Below are positions 14,080 to 24,141 of a DNA stretch of 47,797 bases, one piece after another. The stretch lies in the UHGV virus genome UHGV-0368429, one strand, 5' to 3'. Each line of letters begins with the position of its first letter. Positions within the stretch are counted from its first letter, which is position 1. This stretch comes from a virus. Both the position numbers and the translations under genes were made by a program. Under the pieces are notes generated by a model. It did not search any database, was not told where the DNA came from, and saw nothing but the letters and a program-made list of their open reading frames with translations.

Positions 14080-14799
14080 ATGCGTGAAAAATTGCTGGAT
14101 GCTATCCGTCAGCACGTCGCTGCTGAATACCCCAAAGAAGCCTGCGGCCTGATTGTTCAGTCAGGCCAGCAGCAAATCTATATTCCCTGCCGCAACATTG
14201 CCGATAAACCCGAGGAGACATTCACGCTCTCCCCGGAAGACCAGCTCGCTGCCCGCGCGCGCGGTGAGATCATCATGCTCATTCATTCACATCCGGATGT
14301 GGTTCGGCTGGTGCCCTCAGAGCTGGACCGGATCCAGTGCGACTGGTCGGGTATTGAGTGGGGGATCATGTCCTGGCCGGACGGGGACTTTTGTACGATC
14401 TCCCCGCGTGAAGACCGGGATTATGCCGGGCGGCAGTGGGTGCTGGGTTACGCGGACTGCTGGTCGTTAATCCGTGAATATTATCTGCGCGAATACGGCA
14501 TTGTTCTCGGGGACTATTCGGTACCTTACGAATGGTGGGAGAGCGGCAAGGAGCGGCTCTACGACGACAACTGGGAGCGCGAGGGATTCGTTGAGATTGC
14601 CGCCGGTGCAATGCAGCCCGGTGACATCATCATGATGAGTGTGCAGGCATCGGTGACTAATCACGCCGCGGTATATGTGGGTGACAACATCATTCTCCAT
14701 CATCTGTTCGGGCATCTTTCTTCGCGAACGCCTTATGGAAAATATTATCGCGACAGAACGGTCCGGGTGGTCAGGCATAAGGACCGAATGCATGGTTAA
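14080..14799 (+). CDS. K: Tail tip assembly protein gpK (NlpC/P60 + JAB-like)
   Basis: From ATG 14080: MREKLLDAIRQHVAAEYPKEACGLIVQ...HSHP... matches lambda gpK; the listed ORF start at 13981 lies inside L. Confidence 0.85.
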   Translation: MREKLLDAIRQHVAAEYPKEACGLIVQSGQQQIYIPCRNIADKPEETFTLSPEDQLAARARGEIIMLIHSHPDVVRLVPSELDRIQCDWSGIEWGIMSWPDGDFCTISPREDRDYAGRQWVLGYADCWSLIREYYLREYGIVLGDYSVPYEWWESGKERLYDDNWEREGFVEIAAGAMQPGDIIMMSVQASVTNHAAVYVGDNIILHHLFGHLSSRTPYGKYYRDRTVRVVRHKDRMHG

Positions 14800-15409
14800 G
14801 ACGCTTATTCTCGAAGGGAAAATGGCTAAAAAATTCGGTAAACGCGTTCAGTTTGATGTTGCCGATCTGCGCGAAATGCTCAGGGCCATGTGTTCACAGG
14901 TTCCCGGATTCAAAAAATATATGTCGGAAGCTCATATGAAGGGGATCCGTTTCGCCTTTTTTAACGGTGACAACAATATCGGGCTGGAAGAGTTTGATAT
15001 GACCCGCGGTGGAAGCGTGTACCGGATCGTGCCCGTTTATGAGGGGGCCAAAAATTCAGGCGTCCTGCAGATAGTTGTCGGTGCCGTTGCGCTGGTCGCT
15101 GCATTCTTTACCGCCGGTGCGAGTATGGCAGCCTGGGGGGCTGCGATGAGTGCAACAGCCATCAGCGCCACGTCAATTTTGACCGGGGTCGGGGTGTCAA
15201 TGATGCTGGGTGGCGTTGTCCAGATGCTTACGCCCCAGCCATCCTTCGGCGCGGGTAAATCCTCCAGCACGGACAACACGCCTAACTACGCCTTCGGGGC
15301 GCCGGTTAATACCGTCGCTATGGGGCATCCAGTCCCCCTGGCCTATGGTCTGATCGAGGCAGGGGGAGCGATAGTCAGCGCCGGTATGTACTCGAGCGAT
15401 CAGCAATAG
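14792..15409 (+). CDS. I: Tail tip assembly protein gpI
   Basis: ...CSQVPGFKKYMSEAHMKGIRFAFFNGDNNIGLEEFDMTRGGSVYRIVPV... matches lambda gpI; ATG 14792 overlaps the K stop; exact start uncertain (alternative 14822). Confidence 0.8.
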   Translation: MVKTLILEGKMAKKFGKRVQFDVADLREMLRAMCSQVPGFKKYMSEAHMKGIRFAFFNGDNNIGLEEFDMTRGGSVYRIVPVYEGAKNSGVLQIVVGAVALVAAFFTAGASMAAWGAAMSATAISATSILTGVGVSMMLGGVVQMLTPQPSFGAGKSSSTDNTPNYAFGAPVNTVAMGHPVPLAYGLIEAGGAIVSAGMYSSDQQ

Positions 15410-15488
15410 TGAAATGCAACCTAATAAGATGAACGTTACATTGCGATCACCCTTGGTTATCATGTCCAAAAAGATGCCAATCAAGGAG

Positions 15489-15971
15489 ATGAAAGTGAAA
15501 AAATACGGTTTGGTCTTATTAGGTGTGCTGTTTATTTCAGGTTGTGCCCCCCAAAATCAGAACAACAATTTACAAAAACAATACGCTGACTTAGCAAAGT
15601 GTGAAGATAACATCACGATGCCAAAACAAATGCCGCAAAGTAAAAAGGAGTTTGCGGAGTTTTTATCCAAGGCTGCGCTTAGTGCCTCGGCAGATCAGTT
15701 TGTTACCCAGAAGCGTATAGAAATTCTGCAATTAGTTGGGTGGGATAATTCAGTAGCTGATGCAATAACGACATGTGGAGCTACCAGAAAGAGCAAGCTA
15801 AAAGATATTGGGTCGAATGTGTTTGAAACGATGAAAGCAAACACTAAAGATACAGAAGAGCGTCGCGCTCTTGTTGAGGCTTATAGTTCGTGGGAGGCTT
15901 ATGTAACCAGCCAAACTCCGCTCGCAAAACAGGACTTTGACTCTAAAGTTAGCTATTACAAAAACATGTAA
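15489..15971 (+). CDS. AT-rich moron: predicted lipoprotein of unknown function inserted between I and J
   Basis: Signal peptide with lipobox MKVKKYGLVLLGVLFISG|C; AAGGAG SD; visibly lower GC than flanking tail genes; start uncertain (ATG 15489 or GTG 15495). Confidence 0.6.
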   Translation: MKVKKYGLVLLGVLFISGCAPQNQNNNLQKQYADLAKCEDNITMPKQMPQSKKEFAEFLSKAALSASADQFVTQKRIEILQLVGWDNSVADAITTCGATRKSKLKDIGSNVFETMKANTKDTEERRALVEAYSSWEAYVTSQTPLAKQDFDSKVSYYKNM

Positions 15972-16000
15972 TAAAACGCCATCATTAATACTAACAATTA

Positions 16001-16024
16001 ACCCAGCTCAGGCTGGGTTTTTTA
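16001..16024 (+). terminator. Rho-independent terminator after the I-J moron
   Basis: ACCCAGC-TCAG-GCTGGGT followed by TTTTT, just before the J start. Confidence 0.6.
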
Positions 16025-16035
16025 ATGGGGTAAAA

Positions 16036-19000
16036 ATGCAACTTCTCCATGGTGAAACCATCATTCAGGGTGCTAAAGGGGGCGGTGGGAGCGCGCATAC
16101 TCCGGTTGAGCAACCTGACGATTTGCTGTCGGTCGCAAAATTAAAAATGCTCATTGCCGTTTCTGAGGGGGAAATACAGGGCGACCTGACCGCACAGAAC
16201 ATTTTTCTCAACGATACGCCGCTTGCAAACGACAGCGGGGAATACAACTTCAGCGGCGTGAAATGGGAATTCCGGAAGGGCACACAGGACCAGACCTATA
16301 TTGCCGGGATGCCCCAGGTCGATAACGAGCTGGCGGTTGGCACAACTGTCACCACCACCGCGCCATGGACGCGCCAGTTTACCAACCTTTCCCTGGATGC
16401 CATCCGCATCAAGCTCAGCCTTCCGGTCCAGTATCTCTATAAAGATAACGGCGATATGGTGGGCACGGTCACCGAGTATGCGATCGATTTATCAACGGAT
16501 GGCGGCGCCTGGAAAACGGTTGTAAACGGCAAGTTTGACGGAAAGACCACGACGGAATATCAGCGTGACCACCGTATTGATCTGCCAAAATCCACGTCCG
16601 GCTGGTCTGTCAGGGTCAGGCGTATTACGGCTGATGCCAGCGGATCAAATTCGAAACTGGTTAACGCCTTCAAGGTGTTTTCGTATGCGGAAGTCATCGA
16701 CAGCAAGCTTCGTTATCCTTTAACCGCGCTCCTGTATGTCGAAGTGGACAGCAGCCAGTTCAACGGCAGCGCGCCGAAAGTGACCTGTAAGATAAAAGGC
16801 AAGCTGATTAAGGTTCCGGATAATTACGATCCGATAACCCGAACCTATTCTGGTTCATGGTCCGGCGGGTTCAAAATGGCCTGGTCCAATAACCCTGCCT
16901 GGATCTTTTACGATCTGGTTCTGGATGAAATTTACGGCATGGGCACGCGCGTGGATGCGTACATGGTGGATAAGTGGGCGCTGTATTCAATTGCACAGTA
17001 TTGCGACGAAATGGTTTCCGACGGCGCCGGTGGTACCGAACCGCGTTTCACCTGCAACGTTTTCATTCAGAGCCAGGAGGACGCCTGGCAGGTACTTAAC
17101 GATCTCGCCGCGGTATTTCGTGGAATAACGTTCTGGGGCAACGATCAGATTTATGTCCAGGCAGACGTCCCGCAGGACGATGTTGACTGGGTTTATAACG
17201 CCTCAAACGTTATCGATGGGCTGTTTACTTATGCGGGCGGCTCATACAAGAATCGCTACAGCTCCTGCCTCGTGTCCTGGTCCGATCCGCAGAACCATTA
17301 CAGCGATACCGTTGAGGGAGTCTACGATTCAGAGCTTGTAGAGCGTTACGACGTCAGGCAAACGTCCCTGACCGCAATCGGCTGCACCTCGCAAAGTGAA
17401 GCGCACCGGCGCGGTCGCTGGGTATTACTCTCCAATGCCAAAGACGGGACCGTATCGTTTGGGGTGGGGCTGGACGGCTATATTCCTCTGCCCGCTGAAA
17501 TTATCGGTGTCGCCGATCCTTTCCGTTCCGGAAAGGAGAACGGGGGCCGCATAGTGGCGGTCAATGGCCGCCAGATTACGCTGGATCGAGAAATAGATTA
17601 CGCAGCGAAAGACCGGCTGGTGGTTAACCTGCCCGACGGAAAAGCCCAGACGCGGACAATCAGCGCGGTGAGCGCCGATAAAATAACGGTGACGGTGGCT
17701 ACGGCCTTCAGTCAGGCACCTGCCGCTGGTGCTGTCTGGGCGATAGACAGTGATAACCTCGCGATACAGTACTTCCGGGTCACTTCAATCGCGGCCAACG
17801 ATGACAGCACAGGCGGTTTCACAATTACGGCCGTTCAGCACGATCCAAACAAATACCGTTACATCGATGACGGCGTTCGGATCGAGTCGCCCCCGATCAC
17901 CGTCACGCCGATAAGCGTCCTGTCTGCGCCGAAGAATATCGTGGTGACTGAGAGCGATCATGTGTCTCAGGGTCTGACGGTAGCAAGCCTTGACGTGTCA
18001 TGGGACAAGGTTGAGGGCGCAATCCGGTACGTTGCCCAGTGGCGCAAGGATAACGGGGACTGGATCAACGTTCCGGTTACCAGCGCGCAGGGGTTCTCGG
18101 TTCAGGGCATTTATTCAGGCAGCTATGATGTGCGCGTCCGGGCGCTGAATGCGCAGGATACGTCGTCACCATGGGGATACGCCGAAACAACGTACCTTTC
18201 CGGAAAAACGGGAAAACCGGGTACCCCGCTCAACTTCCTGGCGACCGAAGATGTGGTCTGGCATATCGATCTGACCTGGAAATTTCCGGATGGCTCAGGC
18301 GACACGGCCTATACAGAGATTCAGCGCGCCACAACCTCTGACTACGCCAATCCTGAACTGCTGGTCCTGGTGCCGTACCCGGCTGCAGATTATCAGCATG
18401 GCCCCATGCCTGCTGGCGTTCGCCAGTGGTACCGCGCGCGCCTGATTGACCGTATCGGTAATGTCGGTGACTGGACCGACTGGGTCATGGGCACGTCCTC
18501 GATAGATGTCAGCGAAATAACCAATGACATTCTGGAGGACATGAAAGATTCCGACACGTTCAAAGACCTGATCGAGAACGCGGTGGACAGCAATGAAAAA
18601 GTTGCAGGCATGGCGGATGACATCAAAAAGCATGCCGACGAGCTGGAGCAGCAGGCGAAAGACATCCAGGAGAACGCTGACGGGCTGGCGCAGGCCGAAG
18701 TGAAGATAGACGAGATTTCAGTGTCGATGGACGGCATGACGGGAGGTGTGAAGAACTCGGCAATTGCGATAATCCAGGCCAACCTTGCTCAGGTGGCCAC
18801 GCGTAAAACTCTGTCGGCATCGGTAGCCGGTAACAGCGCACAGCTGGACCGCATTGATGAGGTGATCGTCACTGACAGGGAGGCAACGGCACGCGCATTG
18901 CTGAGCCTGCAGACGAACGTCAACGGTAATACGGCATCCATCAACAGTCTGAGCCAGACGGTTTCGAATTATCAGCAGGCCACGGCGACGCAGATCAACG

Positions 19001-19500
19001 CCATCACTGCGACCATAAACGGTAATACGGCGGCGATAACAACAAACGCCCAGGCCATTGCGAACGTAAACGGCCAGCTCAGCGCGATGTACAACATCAA
19101 GGTTGGGGTAACGAGTAATGGCCAGTATTACGCCGCAGGCATGGGGATCGGGGTGGAGAATACGCCATTAGGGATGCAGTCGCAGGTTATCTTCCTGGCC
19201 GATCGTTTTGCCGTGACTACTGCAGCCGGTAACAGCGTGGCGTTGCCGTTTGTTATTCAGAACGGGCAGACGTTCATCAGGGCCAGCTTCATTCAGGACG
19301 GTACCATTGAGAACGCTAAAATCGGCAACTTTATTCAGTCCAATAACTATGTGGCTGGATCTGTAGGCTGGAAGCTTGATAAGGGAGGAACGTTCGAAAT
19401 TAACGGTGTGGGCGGAGGTGGAAGGATGCTGATATCGAGCACTCTCATTCAAATCTACGACAGCAATAACGTGCTGCGCGTCAGAATGGGGTTATGGTAA
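16036..19500 (+). CDS. J: Tail tip / central fibre host-specificity protein gpJ
   Basis: From ATG 16036, about 1154 aa; broad similarity to lambda gpJ (e.g. ...AWSNNPAWIFYDLVLDEIYGMG..., FTITAVQHDP); C-terminal roughly 250 aa diverge from lambda. Confidence 0.9.
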   Translation: MQLLHGETIIQGAKGGGGSAHTPVEQPDDLLSVAKLKMLIAVSEGEIQGDLTAQNIFLNDTPLANDSGEYNFSGVKWEFRKGTQDQTYIAGMPQVDNELAVGTTVTTTAPWTRQFTNLSLDAIRIKLSLPVQYLYKDNGDMVGTVTEYAIDLSTDGGAWKTVVNGKFDGKTTTEYQRDHRIDLPKSTSGWSVRVRRITADASGSNSKLVNAFKVFSYAEVIDSKLRYPLTALLYVEVDSSQFNGSAPKVTCKIKGKLIKVPDNYDPITRTYSGSWSGGFKMAWSNNPAWIFYDLVLDEIYGMGTRVDAYMVDKWALYSIAQYCDEMVSDGAGGTEPRFTCNVFIQSQEDAWQVLNDLAAVFRGITFWGNDQIYVQADVPQDDVDWVYNASNVIDGLFTYAGGSYKNRYSSCLVSWSDPQNHYSDTVEGVYDSELVERYDVRQTSLTAIGCTSQSEAHRRGRWVLLSNAKDGTVSFGVGLDGYIPLPAEIIGVADPFRSGKENGGRIVAVNGRQITLDREIDYAAKDRLVVNLPDGKAQTRTISAVSADKITVTVATAFSQAPAAGAVWAIDSDNLAIQYFRVTSIAANDDSTGGFTITAVQHDPNKYRYIDDGVRIESPPITVTPISVLSAPKNIVVTESDHVSQGLTVASLDVSWDKVEGAIRYVAQWRKDNGDWINVPVTSAQGFSVQGIYSGSYDVRVRALNAQDTSSPWGYAETTYLSGKTGKPGTPLNFLATEDVVWHIDLTWKFPDGSGDTAYTEIQRATTSDYANPELLVLVPYPAADYQHGPMPAGVRQWYRARLIDRIGNVGDWTDWVMGTSSIDVSEITNDILEDMKDSDTFKDLIENAVDSNEKVAGMADDIKKHADELEQQAKDIQENADGLAQAEVKIDEISVSMDGMTGGVKNSAIAIIQANLAQVATRKTLSASVAGNSAQLDRIDEVIVTDREATARALLSLQTNVNGNTASINSLSQTVSNYQQATATQINAITATINGNTAAITTNAQAIANVNGQLSAMYNIKVGVTSNGQYYAAGMGIGVENTPLGMQSQVIFLADRFAVTTAAGNSVALPFVIQNGQTFIRASFIQDGTIENAKIGNFIQSNNYVAGSVGWKLDKGGTFEINGVGGGGRMLISSTLIQIYDSNNVLRVRMGLW

Positions 19501-19802
19501 TGCCACAGGGTTTACAGTGCTGGGACGGCGCCGGGCGTATTGCCGTTGATTTAAGTGATTACGCTATCCGGTATATTGGAAGCACTTCTGTAACATTTGC
19601 CGCGGGGGAAACGGCGAAAGACGTTTCCTTTTCCGGTGTAACGCAGGATGGATCATTTATATCAATCGTATCGGCGAGTTCGGCAGGAGTAATAAATGAA
19701 TATTATTGCCGGGCTTTTAATGGTGGATTTACCGTTTTTTATTTACCGAGCGGCGGCAGTATTTCTATCACTCTCAATATGGAGGTTTATAACTTTCAAT
19801 GA
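19494..19802 (+). CDS. Hypothetical protein translationally coupled to J (possible tail-tip accessory)
   Basis: ATG overlaps the J stop (ATGGTAATG); 102 aa; no recognisable family. Confidence 0.5.
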   Translation: MVMPQGLQCWDGAGRIAVDLSDYAIRYIGSTSVTFAAGETAKDVSFSGVTQDGSFISIVSASSAGVINEYYCRAFNGGFTVFYLPSGGSISITLNMEVYNFQ

Positions 19803-20440
19803 GTGGATTCGAAGTTTATAACAGTGCTGGAAAATTGCTGGTTGATTCACAAAACAGATCAACACTTTTTTATGATCAGCGTGTGCTCGGCGCAGTGACT
19901 GACAAAGGACATTACCGTGTGGATAGTCCGTTCGGAAACGGAAGCACACTGGGCTTTACCCAGCCGCAGTTCTGGAATGATGGGAATTTGCGTTGGCTGC
20001 AGCTGGATACTAATAAGTATGGCTTACCAGGCGCTGACCTTCTGGAAGACAATGCGGGCAGTATGATACGCACGTCCAGAAACGTTGGAATGCAAAGCGG
20101 ATATCTGGATGTTTTCGACAGCGCGGGGAATCTTATCTGGAGCGCCGCCTCGGCATCGAAAATGCCGCGCGTGGTGGGCTTTTTCGACGTGCCGGCCAAT
20201 TACGATCTACAGAACAATACCTTTGCGGTAAACCTGAGTTTTAACCCGTGGATTCTGGTTAACAACTGCCCTGGTAACCTCAGTGACGACGGTACGGTTG
20301 TTGGTTATTCAGGAATCGTTCTCAAATGGACAGGCTCACAGCTGCAGGGGAGGTACATCACAAAAAATCAGCGCAACTGGAGCCAGACACTTCAGGGGCG
20401 AGGGCTACGAATTCCCATCGCTCAGTTTGTCGGAATTTGA
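19799..20440 (+). CDS. Hypothetical protein coupled to the preceding ORF (possible tail-tip accessory)
   Basis: ATGA overlap with upstream stop; 213 aa; contains motifs FEVYNSAGKLL and LDVFDSAGNLIW that echo the J C-terminus IQIYDSNNVLRV. Confidence 0.5.
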   Translation: MSGFEVYNSAGKLLVDSQNRSTLFYDQRVLGAVTDKGHYRVDSPFGNGSTLGFTQPQFWNDGNLRWLQLDTNKYGLPGADLLEDNAGSMIRTSRNVGMQSGYLDVFDSAGNLIWSAASASKMPRVVGFFDVPANYDLQNNTFAVNLSFNPWILVNNCPGNLSDDGTVVGYSGIVLKWTGSQLQGRYITKNQRNWSQTLQGRGLRIPIAQFVGI

Positions 20441-20767
20441 TACGGGCGGGACGCGGGGGTATTGAGTAGCGATCATGTTTTGCTTAACACCTTTTGCAGG
20501 TTCGAAGCGGTATACGACATCAAGCTTATCCGTTTTCTTATAACAGATGTTGCTGAGCCGCTTATTTATATGTCGGCTGAAAATGCCATTGCTGCTGTCT
20601 GAAATTACGTTAACTTCCCTCGTGGCACAGTCGATATTTACGTGAATATCTCCCCCCAGAGATAAGCGCGCCGCATCCACCGGGTAATCCATTCTGAAGG
20701 CATAGTCTCTGTCTTTGTCGGCACAGCCAGCCGCCAGCAAAAGTGCCACGGCAAATAATCGTTTCAT
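20405..20767 (-). CDS. Predicted lipoprotein, convergent with the tail operon (possibly a Cor-like exclusion protein; inference only)
   Basis: MKRLFAVALLLAAG|C lipobox signal; 120 aa; 3' end overlaps the preceding plus-strand ORF by 36 bp. Confidence 0.5.
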   Translation of the reverse strand: MKRLFAVALLLAAGCADKDRDYAFRMDYPVDAARLSLGGDIHVNIDCATREVNVISDSSNGIFSRHINKRLSNICYKKTDKLDVVYRFEPAKGVKQNMIATQYPRVPPVSNSDKLSDGNS

Positions 20768-20834
20768 TTCTACATTCCTGTATCTGCGGGAATATCCATT
20801 TTATTTGAGTTTAAAAAATAGTCAGATTGATATG

Positions 20835-20875
20835 AGCGATCATTTTTACATTATTGATCGCTTTAAACGATCGTT
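20835..20875. promoter_or_regulatory. Divergent intergenic region with two palindromes (candidate operator)
   Basis: AGCGATCA (20835..20842) and TGATCGCT (20855..20862) are a perfect inverted repeat; AACGATCGTT (20866..20875) is a perfect palindrome; sits between the lipoprotein start and the tail fibre start. Confidence 0.35.
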
Positions 20876-20893
20876 ATTATCGTGAGGTAGTTC

Positions 20894-22213
20894 ATGCTTT
20901 ATAACACTGGAACCATTGCTGTCAACGGAAATACCGCCACAGGGACGGGTACTAACTGGACGGCACCTGCCAGCCAGGTCCGCGCTGGCCAGACGATTAT
21001 CGTCATGTCGAGCCCGGTTCAAATTTTCCAGATCTCAAGCGTGGACAGTTCCACCTCGATGACGGTTACACCTGCCGCCGCTCCGGCACTTAGCGGTCAG
21101 AAGTATGGAATCCTGGTGTCCGACAATATCTCTGTCGACGGACTGGCACAGGCCATGTCGCAGCTCATCAAAGAGTATGACGAGAATATTGGCGCGTGGG
21201 AGACGTTCGCCACAACCTTAGCCAATCAGAGCATTACCGTAACCATTAACGGCACCCCTGTAACGATCCCCGGCATCGGCAAACTGGCGCAAAAAGGGAG
21301 TAACGGTGCGCTGGCTGTTGCTGACGGCGGCACTGGGGCCACGAAGGCAGAGGACGCTCGCACAAACATCGGTTTGGGAGACAGCGCCACCAAGAGTGTT
21401 GGGACGGTAACTGGTACCGTAGCTGCCGGCGATGATTCTCGCATCACTGGTGCCCTTCAAAAAACTGGCGGGAAACTTACAGGACAACTGGATTTGGTAA
21501 GTGCACCGCTTGTGGCAGACGGTAACTCGGTTATTGTTGCAAATGGTGGTCTTGATGTTGATTTAGCAAAAGGACTAGCGTTAAGAGGAAGAGTGCAGCA
21601 GGGGGCGGGCAAAAACAATAATATACTTGTGGTATCTGGAGATGGTGATACAGGCGCGACGGGATATGTAGGTGCATTCCAGTATAACTGGTATACCGAT
21701 GGCTGGATTACAGGGATTACCCGTGGTTCAGGAACTAACACGCTGACGTATTCGATTTACTATAACGGTGCATCTTATGGTACAGGGGATAAACGATGGA
21801 GCTTCAATTATGATGGTTCCGCCACTTCTCAGGGGGCCTGGGTTAATGGTTCTGACGAGCGTCACAAGTCCAATATAAAGCCGGTGTCGACCCCACTAGC
21901 CGCCGTACTATCCATGCGTGGTGTCACGTATGACGTTCAGGATGGTGGTCGGGGTGTAGGACTTATTGCCCAGGATGTTGAAAATTGGTGTCCGGATGCC
22001 GTTAAGACATATGGAGATCGTGAATTCAGTGATGGCACTGTGATTGAGAATTTCAAATTTCTCGACACATCAGGCGTGTCTGCCGCATACCACACCGAAG
22101 CAATCAAAGAACTTTTTACCCTGGTGGAACTGGTACTTATCGATCCGGAAAAAGCACGTGATGTAATCAACGTGGTTAAAGAAGCCACTAAGCCTAGCCA
22201 GTCAGGTTTGTAA
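20894..22213 (+). CDS. Tail fibre / tailspike with C-terminal intramolecular chaperone (peptidase S74-like) domain
   Basis: 439 aa, Gly/Thr-rich repeats; C-terminal ...WVNGSDERHKSNIKPVS...LSMRGVTYD... fits the S-D-x-R-x-K auto-cleavage motif of S74 chaperone domains. Confidence 0.6.
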   Translation: MLYNTGTIAVNGNTATGTGTNWTAPASQVRAGQTIIVMSSPVQIFQISSVDSSTSMTVTPAAAPALSGQKYGILVSDNISVDGLAQAMSQLIKEYDENIGAWETFATTLANQSITVTINGTPVTIPGIGKLAQKGSNGALAVADGGTGATKAEDARTNIGLGDSATKSVGTVTGTVAAGDDSRITGALQKTGGKLTGQLDLVSAPLVADGNSVIVANGGLDVDLAKGLALRGRVQQGAGKNNNILVVSGDGDTGATGYVGAFQYNWYTDGWITGITRGSGTNTLTYSIYYNGASYGTGDKRWSFNYDGSATSQGAWVNGSDERHKSNIKPVSTPLAAVLSMRGVTYDVQDGGRGVGLIAQDVENWCPDAVKTYGDREFSDGTVIENFKFLDTSGVSAAYHTEAIKELFTLVELVLIDPEKARDVINVVKEATKPSQSGL

Positions 22214-22417
22214 ACAATACTCAGGCATCTAACAAGTAAAACGCCGCCCATCGCATGCAAGAATTTGCGGCGGCTAAAATCTGCTCATTAAGAGTTACTG
22301 CCATAAAATTTACAAAACTCATAATTCGAAACGACATAGAAACTTAGAAACGAAACGGCGAAGCTTTAAGCATTCATCACAGACCCTCTGTCTTGCGTGC
22401 ATACTCAAATGAAACTA

Positions 22418-22433
22418 CTGTATATAAAAACAG
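22418..22433. promoter_or_regulatory. LexA (SOS) box upstream of umuD
   Basis: CTGTATATAAAAACAG = CTGT-N8-ACAG with AT-rich spacer, 18 bp before the umuD ATG; identical in form to the E. coli umuDC operator. Confidence 0.85.
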
Positions 22434-22450
22434 TGTTTGAGGTATGCAAC

Positions 22451-22870
22451 ATGGAATTTATCAGGCCTGCAGAACTGCGAGAAATTATAGCTCTCCCGCT
22501 TTTCAGTGACTTAGTGCAGTGTGGTTTCCCAAGCCCAGCGGCTGATTACGTTGAACAGCGCATCGATCTCAATGAGTTACTTGTTGCTCACCCGAGCTCA
22601 ACGTATTTCGTCAAAGCCGCGGGCGATTCTATGATCGAAGCCGGGATCAGCGACGGTGATCTGCTGGTAGTGGACAGCTCCAGGACTGCTGAGCATGGTG
22701 ACATTGTCATCGCTGCGGTGGAAGGGGAGTTCACTGTTAAACGCCTGCAGCTGCGCCCGAACGTGCAACTAAACCCTATGAACAGCGCCTACAGTCCGAT
22801 AGTTATTGGCTGCGAAGATACGCTGGACGTTTTCGGCGTCGTGACTTTCATCGTTAAATCGGCGAGCTGA
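22451..22870 (+). CDS. umuD: UmuD-like error-prone polymerase accessory subunit (S24 peptidase)
   Basis: [45 protein letters not shown]...KAAGDSM... closely matches E. coli UmuD as recalled. Confidence 0.9.
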
Positions 22871-22872
22871 AC

Positions 22873-24141
22873 ATGTTCGCGCTCTGTGATGTGAATTCGT
22901 TCTACGCATCATGCGAGACGGTGTTTCGGCCTGATTTGAGGGGGCGCCCGGTTGTCGTTCTCTCGAATAATGATGGCTGCGTAATTGCGCGCAGCGCCGA
23001 GGCCAAAGCCGCCGGAATTACCATGGGTGAGCCTTTCTTCAAGCAAAAGGAGCTTTTCCGGCGCGCTGGCGTTGTTTGCTTCAGCAGCAATTACGAGCTG
23101 TACGCTGATATGTCGAACCGGGTAATGACGACGCTGGAAGAAATGAGCCCTCGCGTCGAAATATATAGCATCGATGAAGCTTTTTGCGACCTTACTGGTG
23201 TTCGAAACTGCCGGGACCTGACAGAGTTTGGCAAAGAGATCCGCGCGACGGTTCTGAAGCGTACGCACCTGACTGTCGGGATTGGCATCGCGAAAAGTAA
23301 GACCCTTGCAAAGCTGGCAAATCACGCCGCCAAAAAATGGCAGCGTCAGACGGGCGGAGTTGTTGATTTGTCCAATATCGATCGCCAGCGTCGGTTGTTG
23401 GCTATTGTGCCTGTGGAGGACGTATGGGGCGTCGGCAGGCGCATCAGTAAGAAGCTGAACGCCATGGGCATCAAAACGGCTCTGGACCTCTCAGAACAAA
23501 GCACATGGATTATCCGTAAACACTTTAACGTGGTACTCGAGCGAACGGTCCGGGAGTTGCGCGGCGAGCCTTGTCTTGATCTGGAGGAGTTTGCACCAGC
23601 TAAGCAGGAAATCGTCTGCAGTCGGTCATTCGGTGAACGCGTTACCGAATACGAACAGATGCGGCAGGCTATTTGCAGCTATGCGGCGCGTGGTGCTGAA
23701 AAGCTTCGCGGCGAACATCAGTATTGCCGTTTTATCTCTGCGTTCGTGAAGACGTCACCTTTTGCCCTGAACGAGCCGTATTACGGCAACAGCGCGTCAG
23801 TGAAGCTTCTCACCCCCACTCAGGATTCCCGCGACATCATCAACGCCGCGGTAAAGTGCCTGGACAAAATCTGGAAGGATGGGCACCGCTATCAAAAGGC
23901 TGGAATTATGCTGGGAGATTTTTTCAGTCAAGGGGTGGCACAGCTGAACCTTTTCGATGAGCACGCGCCGCGCGCTGGAAGCGATAAGTTGATGGATGTG
24001 CTCGATCACTTGAACGCGAAAGAAGGGAAAGGAACACTCTTCTTTGCCGGGCAGGGCATTCAACAGCAGTGGCAGATGAAGCGGCAGTTGCTTTCACCCC
24101 GATATACTACTCGCATATCAGATTTATTAATTGTGAAGTAA
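22873..24141 (+). CDS. umuC: UmuC-like Y-family translesion DNA polymerase (Pol V catalytic subunit)
   Basis: 422 aa; [41 protein letters not shown]... is the Y-family N-terminus; immediately follows umuD. Confidence 0.9.

What the first reader, a model, noticed from the sequence alone, without database searches (positions are those of the whole stretch)
19494..20440. Two translationally coupled ORFs after J share a short motif with the J C-terminus
Both ORFs start on overlaps with the preceding stop (ATGGTAATG and ATGA), so they belong to the tail operon. The second contains FEVYNSAGKLL and LDVFDSAGNLIW, echoing IQIYDSNNVLRV at the end of J and LQCWDGAGRIAVDL in the first ORF. This may mark small beta-rich tail-tip accessory or receptor-binding adaptor proteins that I cannot place in a known family; lambda has lom and stf/tfa here instead.
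Basis: inference. Interest (0 to 1): 0.4.

Follow-up and report, generated by a model that had tools for sequence, protein, structure and literature searches.

The report
Two-protein receptor-binding tip of tail fibre
The two small genes after the tail-tip gene J encode the detachable, two-protein receptor-binding head that caps the phage's central tail fibre. This is a known kind of module (as in F-type pyocins, phage T1 and Pseudomonas phage DEV), here in the version linked to the outer-membrane transporter YncD.

Summary

A motif model built only from nine other phages finds exactly those four sites in the six-frame translation of the window. The echo in the J tail is not significant on its own.

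The pair is not an orphan. A small (~100 aa) plus large (~215-240 aa) gene pair follows the J-like central fibre gene in T1, LUZ7, DEV, Presley and phiL7, and the literature reports it in N15 and F-type pyocins. The pyocin proteins are PyoF11/PyoF12 ('Specificity Module 1'). Genetics and AlphaFold3 models in DEV put one copy of each on the fibre trimer, with the large protein binding the receptor.

ORF2 is 47-49% identical over its full length to the proteins next to gpJ in the YncD-dependent phages IsaakIselin and IME347. The third gene of that locus, an exported protein, is also present here (20405..20767, minus strand).

Verdict: a new member of a known kind, with modest interest. Inferred, not shown: the three hairpins dock on the three J tails.

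The parts
16036..19500 (+). Central tail fibre / tip attachment protein J (1154 aa from the internal ATG; the mechanical ORF opens at TTG 15937)
   Evidence: Pfam FNIII-A_GpJ 3.8e-41, Phage-tail_3 1e-13, Phage_Tail_Tip 1.6e-48. Gene callers on identical public contigs give 1154 aa.
19420..19497 (+). Last 26 residues of J (GRMLISSTLIQIYDSNNVLRVRMGLW): proposed docking tail for the two-protein head; it holds the J copy of the hairpin motif (19447-19482)
   Evidence: This short tail is conserved even where the rest of the fibre protein is unrelated: Presley 2130-aa tail protein, 15 of the last 18 residues identical. Some Acinetobacter phages match only these last ~26 residues. It lies beyond the end of the Pfam Phage_Tail_Tip match.
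19500..19802 (+). ORF1, 100 aa (102 aa if started at 19494): small subunit, PyoF11 / DEV gp55-like adaptor; one lectin-like beta-sandwich domain preceded by a hairpin (motif at 19512-19553)
19799..20440 (+). ORF2, 213 aa: large subunit, PyoF12 / DEV gp54-like receptor-binding protein (Pfam DUF8377); two domains, each opened by a hairpin (19808-19840 and 20105-20140)
   Evidence: phrog_4524 3e-80; residues 101-160 hit the small-subunit family phrog_2427 at 3.2e-5. 47-49% identity over 100% of its length to IsaakIselin and IME347 proteins. PF28254:DUF8377 on record for the identical protein. AF2 pLDDT 86.4, pTM 0.81. BFVD matches include phiL7 p23.
20405..20767 (-). 120-aa exported protein with a signal peptide and a possible lipobox (LLLAAG-C): candidate cognate superinfection-exclusion protein. 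Convergent with ORF2; the 3' ends overlap by 36 nt
   Evidence: phrog_25729 7.1e-64. The third gene of the IsaakIselin and KL3 loci hits the same family. The IME347 protein is a tblastn homologue. Homologues occur in 44 phage records, essentially the set that carries ORF1/ORF2 homologues. Sequence comparison.

Best explanation
ORF1 and ORF2 are the two separately encoded subunits of the receptor-binding head of the central tail fibre.

Expression: they are translated from the J message by coupled re-initiation (TAATG and ATGA overlaps).

Roles: ORF2 (two domains) is the receptor-binding protein. ORF1 (one domain) is the adaptor or co-binder that holds it on the fibre.

Receptor: this allele is the one found beside gpJ in the YncD-dependent T1-like phages. 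The predicted terminal receptor is therefore YncD or its orthologue, a TonB-dependent outer-membrane transporter.

Third gene: the exported 120-aa protein encoded on the opposite strand is the likely cognate superinfection-exclusion factor.

The motif: it is a beta-hairpin (strand, D-x-x-G turn, strand) that opens each of the three domains of the head and closes each J chain. I infer that the three hairpins of the ORF1-ORF2 heterodimer pair with, or stack on, the three J tails. That would turn a three-fold fibre into one asymmetric receptor-binding head.

Shown here: the gene anatomy, sequence homology for ORF1 and indirect links for ORF2, the fold class of ORF1, the motif conservation and the three-gene co-occurrence.

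Taken from the literature: the DEV AlphaFold3 model with one gp55 and one gp54 on the gp56 trimer, presence in virions, essentiality, and YncD dependence of the relatives.

Inferred: hairpin docking, YncD as receptor for this particular prophage, and the exclusion role of the third gene.
For: Anatomy and distribution
- Overlapping start and stop codons after J.
- The same small-plus-large pair follows the J-like gene in HK639, T1, PaulSarasin, LUZ7, DEV, Presley and phiL7. It lies next to that gene on the opposite strand in IsaakIselin, KL3 and IME347.

Sequence links for the small subunit
- ORF1, LUZ7 gp58, phiL7 P22, Presley gp59 and DEV gp55 all hit phrog_2427.

Sequence and fold links for the large subunit
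- The ORF2 profile finds P0269 (E 1.7e-4), which BLASTs to DEV gp54 at 1.6e-7 and to ORF2 at 1.7e-5.
- The ORF2 model matches the predicted structure of phiL7 p23 (E 2.2e-6).
- phiL7 P23, T1 ST31 and DEV gp54 all hit phrog_3370.

Fold

Domain count
- One domain in ORF1 and two in ORF2, as described for PyoF11 and PyoF12 (PMC13455828).

Literature
- PyoF11/PyoF12 always lie 3' of the central fibre gene, are essential, and co-vary with the last 60 residues of the fibre. Their alignment includes LUZ7, LIT1, T1 and N15 (10.1101/2021.02.16.431561).
- Both proteins were detected in pyocin particles and are predicted to cap the fibre (PMC12874032).
- In DEV, gp54 is the receptor-binding protein by suppressor genetics. 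Both genes are essential. The AlphaFold3 model, built with one copy of each on the fibre trimer, has ipTM 0.8 (PMC12892993).

Receptor
- IsaakIselin and IME347 depend on YncD (PMC8594841).
- ORF2 is 47-49% identical to their proteins over 100% of its length. That is above the >30% identity and >99% coverage used to define receptor-specific families in 10.64898/2026.04.02.716166.
- The third gene is shared too.

Hairpins
- Independent HMM test.
- The hairpins have lower pLDDT than the domain bodies in the monomer models (ORF2 residues 1-20 about 65, residues 101-120 about 78; ORF1 residues 1-10 about 72). This fits elements that become ordered only in a complex.
- The J tail type tracks the module type across unrelated phages.
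Against: - No complex was modelled or observed for this locus. The one-of-each arrangement is borrowed from an AlphaFold3 model of DEV that was built with that composition, supported only by a low-resolution map. The F7-pyocin authors call their own models relatively low-confidence.
- The link from ORF2 to DEV gp54 and T1 ST31 is transitive, not direct. Direct BLAST and hhalign similarity between families is confined to the hairpins.
- The J-tail motif is not independently significant.
- The motif type is common in other beta-rich repeat proteins.
- 47% identity leaves room for a change of receptor, and the host is probably not E. coli. The region occurs in only 3 of 5426 complete E. coli genomes, at about 79% identity, and the best protein hits are from Enterobacter.
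- The third gene's role is assigned by position and export signal only. Its Drexlerviridae homologues have no lipobox cysteine.
Confidence: 0.8

Rival explanations
1. The pair is the receptor-binding head as described, but the receptor of this allele is not YncD. It could be another TonB-dependent transporter or another outer-membrane protein of the actual host.
For: - ORF2 is only 47-49% identical to the proteins of the YncD-dependent phages.
- Homologous pairs in DEV and T1 serve LptD and FhuA, so the scaffold retargets readily.
- The host is probably Enterobacter or a relative.
- ORF1 is much more diverged from HK639 (66.7%) than ORF2 (89.7%).
Against: - Identity and coverage exceed the thresholds that separated receptor classes without exception in 64 T1-like phages.
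- The exported third gene, expected to be receptor-specific, is shared with both YncD-dependent phages.
- The near-identical phage LLS grows on E. coli K-12.
Confidence: 0.3
2. The four-place motif is only the generic sequence signature of a tight beta-hairpin. It recurs because all these domains are beta-rich, and it has no specific docking role. The head attaches to J through other surfaces.
For: - The J tail is not detected by a model built from the ORF hairpins, nor the reverse.
- Very similar hairpins (IYDKDGNV) repeat in an unrelated protein.
- From general knowledge, YD repeats and bulb-lectin strands look alike.
Against: - The motif holds the same four positions in nine phages of three morphologically and taxonomically distant groups.
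- The last ~26 residues of J are conserved together with the module even when the rest of the fibre is unrelated.
- The hairpins are the least confident parts of otherwise confident monomer models.
Confidence: 0.35
3. ORF1 and ORF2 are assembly chaperones for the J fibre and are absent from the finished virion.
For: Saha et al. raised this possibility for PyoF11/PyoF12 before particle data existed. Detection of DEV gp55 in virions was uncertain.
Against: - PyoF11 and PyoF12 were detected in pyocin particles by mass spectrometry, and matching density was seen by cryo-ET.
- DEV gp54 is a virion protein, and the LIT1 orthologues of both are structural.
- Receptor-suppressor mutations map to gp54.
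- ORF1 has a receptor-binding-domain fold.
Confidence: 0.06
4. They are lysogenic-conversion (moron) membrane proteins, as the T1 annotation ('outer membrane protein', 'membrane associated protein') and the PHROG category suggest.
For: The annotation of T1 ST32 and ST31 and of phrog_557 and phrog_425.
Against: - No signal peptide or hydrophobic segment in either protein (sequences).
- Translational coupling to J.
- The pair is present in strictly lytic phages.
- Genetics in DEV and in pyocins.
Confidence: 0.02

Closest known systems
F-type pyocin 'Specificity Module 1': PyoF10 C-terminus + PyoF11 + PyoF12 (Saha et al., 10.1101/2021.02.16.431561; PMC12874032; PMC13455828)
   Same: - A small then a large gene immediately 3' of the central fibre gene.
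- One domain in the small protein and two in the large.
- Receptor-binding-domain fold like R-pyocin and Pam1 fibres.
- The fibre C-terminus co-varies with the pair.
- Phage homologues named in their alignment (LUZ7, T1) have the same architecture. The LUZ7 small protein shares a PHROG family with ORF1.
   Different: - That system is a Pseudomonas tailocin, not a phage.
- I did not compare pyocin sequences directly.
- The target there is thought to be LPS or another surface receptor, not a TonB-dependent transporter.
- No exclusion gene is attached.
Pseudomonas phage DEV receptor-binding fibre gp56-gp55-gp54 (PMC12892993)
   Same: - J-like trimer, then a 99-aa protein, then a 223-aa protein, with overlapping stop and start codons.
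- The four hairpin motifs sit at the same places.
- gp55 shares phrog_2427 with ORF1.
- gp54 is linked to ORF2 through the intermediate P0269.
   Different: - DEV is a podovirus whose fibre sits beside a tail plug.
- Its receptor is LptD.
- Direct sequence identity to ORF1 and ORF2 is limited to the hairpins.
YncD-type receptor locus beside gpJ in Drexlerviridae (IsaakIselin/Bas10, IME347; PMC8594841; 10.64898/2026.04.02.716166)
   Same: All three genes are homologous: small protein 32-37% identical, large protein 47-49%, exported protein 31-35%. These are the closest characterised relatives.
   Different: - In those lytic phages the three genes lie on the strand opposite to J and are co-directional with each other.
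- Here ORF1 and ORF2 are coupled to J and only the exported protein is inverted.
- Here that protein has a possible lipobox cysteine, which theirs lacks.
T1 ST32/ST31 + Cor (also N15 gp22/gp23, HK022): FhuA-type locus
   Same: Same gene sizes, the same order after J, the same four motif positions, and an exclusion gene on the opposite strand.
   Different: - Different PHROG families (557 and 425). They link to the ORF2 side only through phrog_3370 and phiL7 P23.
- The receptor is FhuA and the exclusion protein is Cor.
T5 pb5 + Llp
   Same: Works alike: a separately encoded monomeric receptor-binding protein on a trimeric central fibre, with a cognate exclusion lipoprotein.
   Different: No sequence or fold match was found. 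T5 uses a single protein, not a pair.
Lambda J C-terminal receptor-binding domain; lambda lom, stf and tfa
   Same: Same position in the tail operon and the same task of terminal receptor recognition.
   Different: In lambda the receptor-binding domain is fused to J. Here J stops 21 residues after the Phage_Tail_Tip domain. No similarity to Lom, Stf or Tfa was found.

Membership tests
PyoF11/PyoF12 module (Specificity Module 1) | Pair of genes lying immediately 3' of the central fibre (J/PyoF10) gene | tested here: met
   ORF1 overlaps the J stop codon and ORF2 overlaps the ORF1 stop codon.
PyoF11/PyoF12 module (Specificity Module 1) | Small subunit homologous to PyoF11 and its phage homologues (LUZ7, LIT1, T1, N15) | tested here: met
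   ORF1 hits phrog_2427 at 1.4e-8. LUZ7 gp58 hits the same family at 2.5e-21 and DEV gp55 at 2.6e-4. LUZ7 is in the published PyoF11 alignment. Pyocin sequences themselves were not compared.
PyoF11/PyoF12 module (Specificity Module 1) | Large subunit homologous to PyoF12 and its phage homologues | tested here: inconclusive
   Only transitive links were found. P0269 bridges ORF2 (1.7e-5) and DEV gp54 (1.6e-7). The ORF2 model matches the phiL7 p23 model, and phiL7 P23 shares phrog_3370 with DEV gp54 and T1 ST31. Direct comparisons align only the hairpins.
PyoF11/PyoF12 module (Specificity Module 1) | One domain in the small protein and two in the large, with a fold like R-pyocin and Pam1 receptor-binding domains | tested here: met
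PyoF11/PyoF12 module (Specificity Module 1) | C-terminal end of the fibre co-varies with the pair | tested here: met
   J tails ending LRVRMGLW go with the phrog_7961 + phrog_4524 pair, even in the unrelated Presley tail protein. Tails ending RVQIGRLTGxW go with the T1-type pair. This is qualitative, from about ten phages.
PyoF11/PyoF12 module (Specificity Module 1) | Both proteins are present in the particle and are essential for activity | not testable with these tools
   Known for pyocins and DEV only.
YncD-type receptor locus of T1-like phages | Receptor-binding protein >30% identical over >99% of its length to family members (criterion of 10.64898/2026.04.02.716166) | tested here: met
   47.4% to IsaakIselin and 49.3% to IME347, with 100% coverage. 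The criterion was read. The text does not say which gene of the YncD locus is the designated receptor-binding protein.
YncD-type receptor locus of T1-like phages | Same accessory genes in the locus next to gpJ | tested here: met
   The small protein and the exported third protein (phrog_25729) are both present.
YncD-type receptor locus of T1-like phages | Infection depends on YncD | not testable with these tools
   Shown experimentally only for IsaakIselin and IME347.
Pfam DUF8377 (PF28254) | Match to the Pfam model | tested here: met
   A precomputed hit is on record for the identical protein and for all close homologues. The local Pfam copy lacks this model, so my own scan found nothing.
Lambda-type J with fused receptor-binding domain | C-terminal receptor-binding domain after the central straight fibre | tested here: not met
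   Phage_Tail_Tip ends at residue 1166 of 1187, leaving only a 21-residue tail.
T5 pb5-type receptor-binding protein | Sequence or fold similarity to pb5 | tested here: not met

The most novel reading that the evidence does not exclude
The hairpin is a universal docking code. Each J chain ends in one hairpin, and the head supplies exactly three (one from the small protein, two from the large). A pseudo-three-fold heterodimer would then continue the trimeric beta-prism of the fibre and break its symmetry, so that a single asymmetric head meets a monomeric outer-membrane protein. On this reading the FhuA (T1), YncD, DEV-LptD and pyocin heads are one superfamily sharing one attachment rule. Heads could then be swapped between fibres by matching only the last ~26 residues of J. 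The papers I read do not mention such a motif (a text search of the DEV paper for 'motif' and 'hairpin' found nothing).
Probability: 0.4. Interest if true: 0.5.

Novelty: new member of a known kind. Interest (0 to 1): 0.3.

Why it matters
It gives two genes that every searched record labels 'hypothetical' or 'unknown' a specific, testable role and a predicted receptor. It also shows that the receptor module of lytic T1-like phages circulates in temperate HK639-like prophages of Enterobacteriaceae. The annotations 'outer membrane protein' and 'membrane associated protein' on the T1 homologues are probably wrong. If the hairpin-docking rule holds, it would be a simple handle for retargeting phages and tailocins.

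Tried and rejected
- Family scans. Pfam and NCBIfam scans of ORF1 and ORF2 found nothing. The local Pfam copy lacks DUF8377.
- Solved structures. The PDB sequence search gave only chance antibody hits for ORF1 and none for ORF2. Foldseek of the ORF2 model against the PDB gave nothing at E <= 0.001.
- Internal duplication. hhalign of the ORF1 family against the ORF2 family and its halves aligned only 11-24 columns around the hairpins (P 1e-4 to 1e-2). It does not prove whole-domain duplication. The PHROG sub-hit on ORF2 residues 101-160 is the better evidence for that.
- FhuA paper (PMC10373560). It treats J itself as the receptor-binding protein and says nothing about the pair.
- Bulb-type lectin idea. 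One BFVD match is annotated that way, and the hairpins resemble lectin strands. No Pfam B_lectin hit appeared, so I dropped it.
- Long, multi-stretch hits of the ORF2 profile (P0265, P0266, P0272-P0274). These are unrelated repeat proteins.
- Post-hoc regular expression. One built from the four motifs hits only those four sites (shuffle mean 0.155), but it is circular and I do not rely on it.
- Promoter and terminator scan of 19300-21000. Counts were no higher than in shuffled sequence.
Full report
WHAT IS THERE

The J-like gene ends with TAA at 19498-19500. Its mechanical ORF is 15937..19500, and the likely start is the internal ATG at 16036, giving 1154 aa as called on identical public contigs.

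An ORF opens at ATG 19494 within ATGGTAATG and ends at 19802. The next starts at ATG 19799 (ATGA overlap) and ends at 20440.

The second ATG at 19500 is the more likely start of ORF1. It overlaps the J stop as TAATG and has a GGGG run 8 nt upstream. It also gives an N-terminus (MPQGLQCWD) in register with distant homologues that begin MPGLQ, MQGMQ, MPAGLQ or MSQGLQ. ORF2 has GGAGG at 19781-19785.

Neither protein has a signal peptide or a hydrophobic segment (sequences).

IS THE MOTIF REAL?

The four motif strings are at the stated places. I aligned the equivalent segments from nine other phages and built a 21-column HMM that excluded the window and its close relatives. Against all 1374 six-frame peptides of the window it hits only four sites:
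- ORF2 N-terminus, E 1.7e-5
- ORF1 N-terminus, E 6.2e-5
- ORF2 middle, E 1.6e-4
- J C-terminus, E 3.3e-4

The next hit is at E 1.8.

The three motifs in the ORFs are therefore a true shared element. The J copy is weaker. Models trained without J examples do not find it, and a J-only model does not find the ORF hairpins (E 2-14). Profile-profile comparison gives P 6e-7 (local) and 8e-4 (global), which is rough for such short profiles.

A similar hairpin recurs in an unrelated repeat protein, so part of the signal is generic to tight beta-hairpins. The positions are not generic. In T1, PaulSarasin, IsaakIselin, KL3, PJNS034, LUZ7, DEV, Presley and phiL7 the motif sits at the fibre C-terminus, the N-terminus of the small protein, the N-terminus of the large protein and around residue 105-118 of the large protein.

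In the AlphaFold2 models the motif is a strand, a D-x-x-G turn and a strand. These are the least confident parts of otherwise confident models: ORF1 pLDDT 90.4, ORF2 pLDDT 86.4 and pTM 0.81.

WHAT IT IS

Pfam (local copy), NCBIfam and PDB sequence searches found nothing.

PHROGs place ORF1 in phrog_7961 (1.5e-32) with a second hit to phrog_2427 (1.4e-8). ORF2 falls in phrog_4524 (3e-80), and its residues 101-160 hit the small-protein family phrog_2427 (3.2e-5). ORF2 therefore looks like an N-terminal domain followed by an ORF1-like domain.

The identical ORF2 protein carries a precomputed Pfam hit, PF28254 = DUF8377.

By tblastn the pair occurs in 52-59 phage records:
- HK639-like temperate phages (LLS 98% identical, Flotzy, HK639);
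- many T1-like Drexlerviridae of Escherichia and Klebsiella;
- at greater distance, Cronobacter, Pantoea, Acinetobacter and Xanthomonas phages.

A small (~100 aa) plus large (~215-240 aa) pair follows the J-like gene in T1 (ST32/ST31, then Cor on the other strand), PaulSarasin, LUZ7 (gp58/gp57), DEV (gp55/gp54), Presley (gp59/gp58) and phiL7 (P22/P23).

Sequence links between these sets:
- LUZ7 gp58, phiL7 P22, Presley gp59 and DEV gp55 all hit phrog_2427, as ORF1 does.
- DEV gp54, T1 ST31 and phiL7 P23 share phrog_3370.
- The ORF2 model matches the predicted structure of phiL7 p23 and other phage proteins of the same size.
- The ORF2 profile, scored against 1.84 billion representatives, finds only 78 clusters. 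One of them, P0269, BLASTs to both DEV gp54 (1.6e-7) and ORF2 (1.7e-5).

WHAT THE LITERATURE SAYS

Saha et al. defined PyoF11 and PyoF12. [quoted passage not shown] LUZ7, LIT1, T1 and N15 are in their alignments. With the last 60 residues of the fibre they form 'Specificity Module 1' (10.1101/2021.02.16.431561).

The F7-pyocin study reports both proteins in particles. It gives AlphaFold3 models of them capping the fibre and notes resemblance to the R-pyocin and Pam1 receptor-binding domains. It also uses the HK639 fibre as an example of a predicted coiled-coil to beta-prism switch (PMC12874032).

A second pyocin structure paper notes one Ig-like domain in PyoF11 and two in PyoF12 (PMC13455828).

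For phage DEV, gp56-gp55-gp54 have overlapping stop and start codons and all three are essential. Suppressors of an lptD mutation map to gp54. An AlphaFold3 model (ipTM 0.8), built with one gp55 and one gp54 on the gp56 trimer, places them at its tip (PMC12892993).

For T1-like coliphages, alleles of the locus next to gpJ predict the terminal receptor (PMC8594841; 10.64898/2026.04.02.716166). IsaakIselin and IME347 depend on YncD.

WHICH ALLELE IS THIS?

ORF2 is 47.4% identical to the IsaakIselin protein and 49.3% to the IME347 protein over its full length. ORF1 is 32-37% identical to their small proteins.

Their loci contain a third gene for an exported ~110-aa protein. Its homologue is the 120-aa ORF at 20405..20767 on the minus strand of the window. 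All are phrog_25729 or tblastn matches. This third gene occurs in 44 phage records, essentially the same set as the pair.

Exclusion proteins in comparable loci act on the receptor: Cor in T1, Llp in T5, and Rtp45 on LptD. The shared third gene is therefore an independent argument that the receptor is the same.

In the lytic phages the three genes are co-directional and lie opposite to J. Here the pair is coupled to J and only the third gene is inverted, with 36 nt of 3' overlap with ORF2.

The window version has a cysteine after its signal peptide (LLLAAG-C), so it may be a lipoprotein. The Drexlerviridae versions have no cysteine there.

HOW IT MOST LIKELY WORKS

Shown here: coupled genes after J, sequence homology for the small protein and indirect links for the large one, the fold class of ORF1, motif conservation and three-gene co-occurrence.

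From the literature: one small and one large protein modelled on the fibre trimer, the large protein binding the receptor, and both proteins being structural and essential.

Inferred:
1. The receptor here is YncD or its orthologue.
2. The 120-aa protein blocks that receptor in lysogens.
3. The three hairpins of the heterodimer dock on the three J tails and so break the three-fold symmetry.

The third inference rests on four observations:
- the count of three hairpins against three tails;
- the low confidence of the hairpins in monomer models;
- the fibre tail tracking the module type. Tails ending LRVRMGLW go with this pair even on the otherwise unrelated 2130-aa Presley tail protein (15 of the last 18 residues identical), while tails ending RVQIGRLTGxW go with the T1-type pair;
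- some Acinetobacter phages matching only the last ~26 residues of J.

CAVEATS

- No complex was modelled.
- The ORF2 to DEV and T1 link is transitive.
- The host is probably not E. coli. Only 3 of 5426 complete E. coli genomes carry the region, at about 79% identity, and the closest proteins are from Enterobacter.

VERDICT

The pair belongs to a known, recently characterised kind of module. It is a new member (the YncD-type allele in a temperate HK639-like prophage), not a new kind.

The recurring four-place hairpin is not mentioned in the papers I read (a text search of the DEV paper for 'motif' and 'hairpin' found nothing). It is a modest lead worth a multimer prediction.

Noticed in passing
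window 15414..15971 (+); likely start at 15492: A lipoprotein-like ORF (MKVKKYGLVLLGVLFISG-C lipobox; phrog_8179, unknown function) is inserted between the gpI-like gene (14675..15409) and J. This is an unusual place for an extra gene in a lambda-like tail operon. It may be a moron.
   Followed up: partly
window 20894..22213 (+): A 439-aa tail fibre with a C-terminal Peptidase_S74 intramolecular chaperone domain (Pfam 5e-12; PHROG tail fibre families). It is presumably the side fibre, the counterpart of the pyocin 'Specificity Module 2'.
   Followed up: partly
window 22397..24141 (+): A umuD-like (Peptidase_S24) and umuC-like (IMS) gene pair lies directly after the tail fibre gene, so the prophage carries error-prone polymerase genes. 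HK639 has UmuD at the same place.
   Followed up: no
L013 6003..6642 (GCA_045626905.1): In one otherwise identical public locus a reverse-transcriptase gene (RVT_1) follows the tail fibre gene where the umuD/umuC pair sits in the other three loci shown.
   Followed up: no
window J, roughly residues 870-1075 of the 1187-residue ORF (about 18545..19160): J has a long Ala/Gln/Asn-rich stretch that looks heptad-like. [quoted passage not shown] I ran no coiled-coil prediction.
   Followed up: no
L002 (HK639, HM208537.1) record 23538..23897, minus strand: The homologue of the 120-aa exported protein (84% identical) is not annotated as a gene in the HK639 GenBank record.
   Followed up: partly
L007 (T1, NC_005833.1) ST32 and ST31: These are annotated 'outer membrane protein' and 'membrane associated protein', and PHROGs files phrog_425 under 'moron'. 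Given the pyocin and DEV work they are more likely the FhuA-type tail-tip head, so the annotations look wrong.
   Followed up: partly
window ORF1 vs ORF2, compared with HK639: ORF1 is far more diverged from HK639 (66.7% aa identity) than ORF2 (89.7%) or the J tail. Against phage LLS both are about 98% identical. This suggests a recombination boundary or faster evolution of the small subunit.
   Followed up: no
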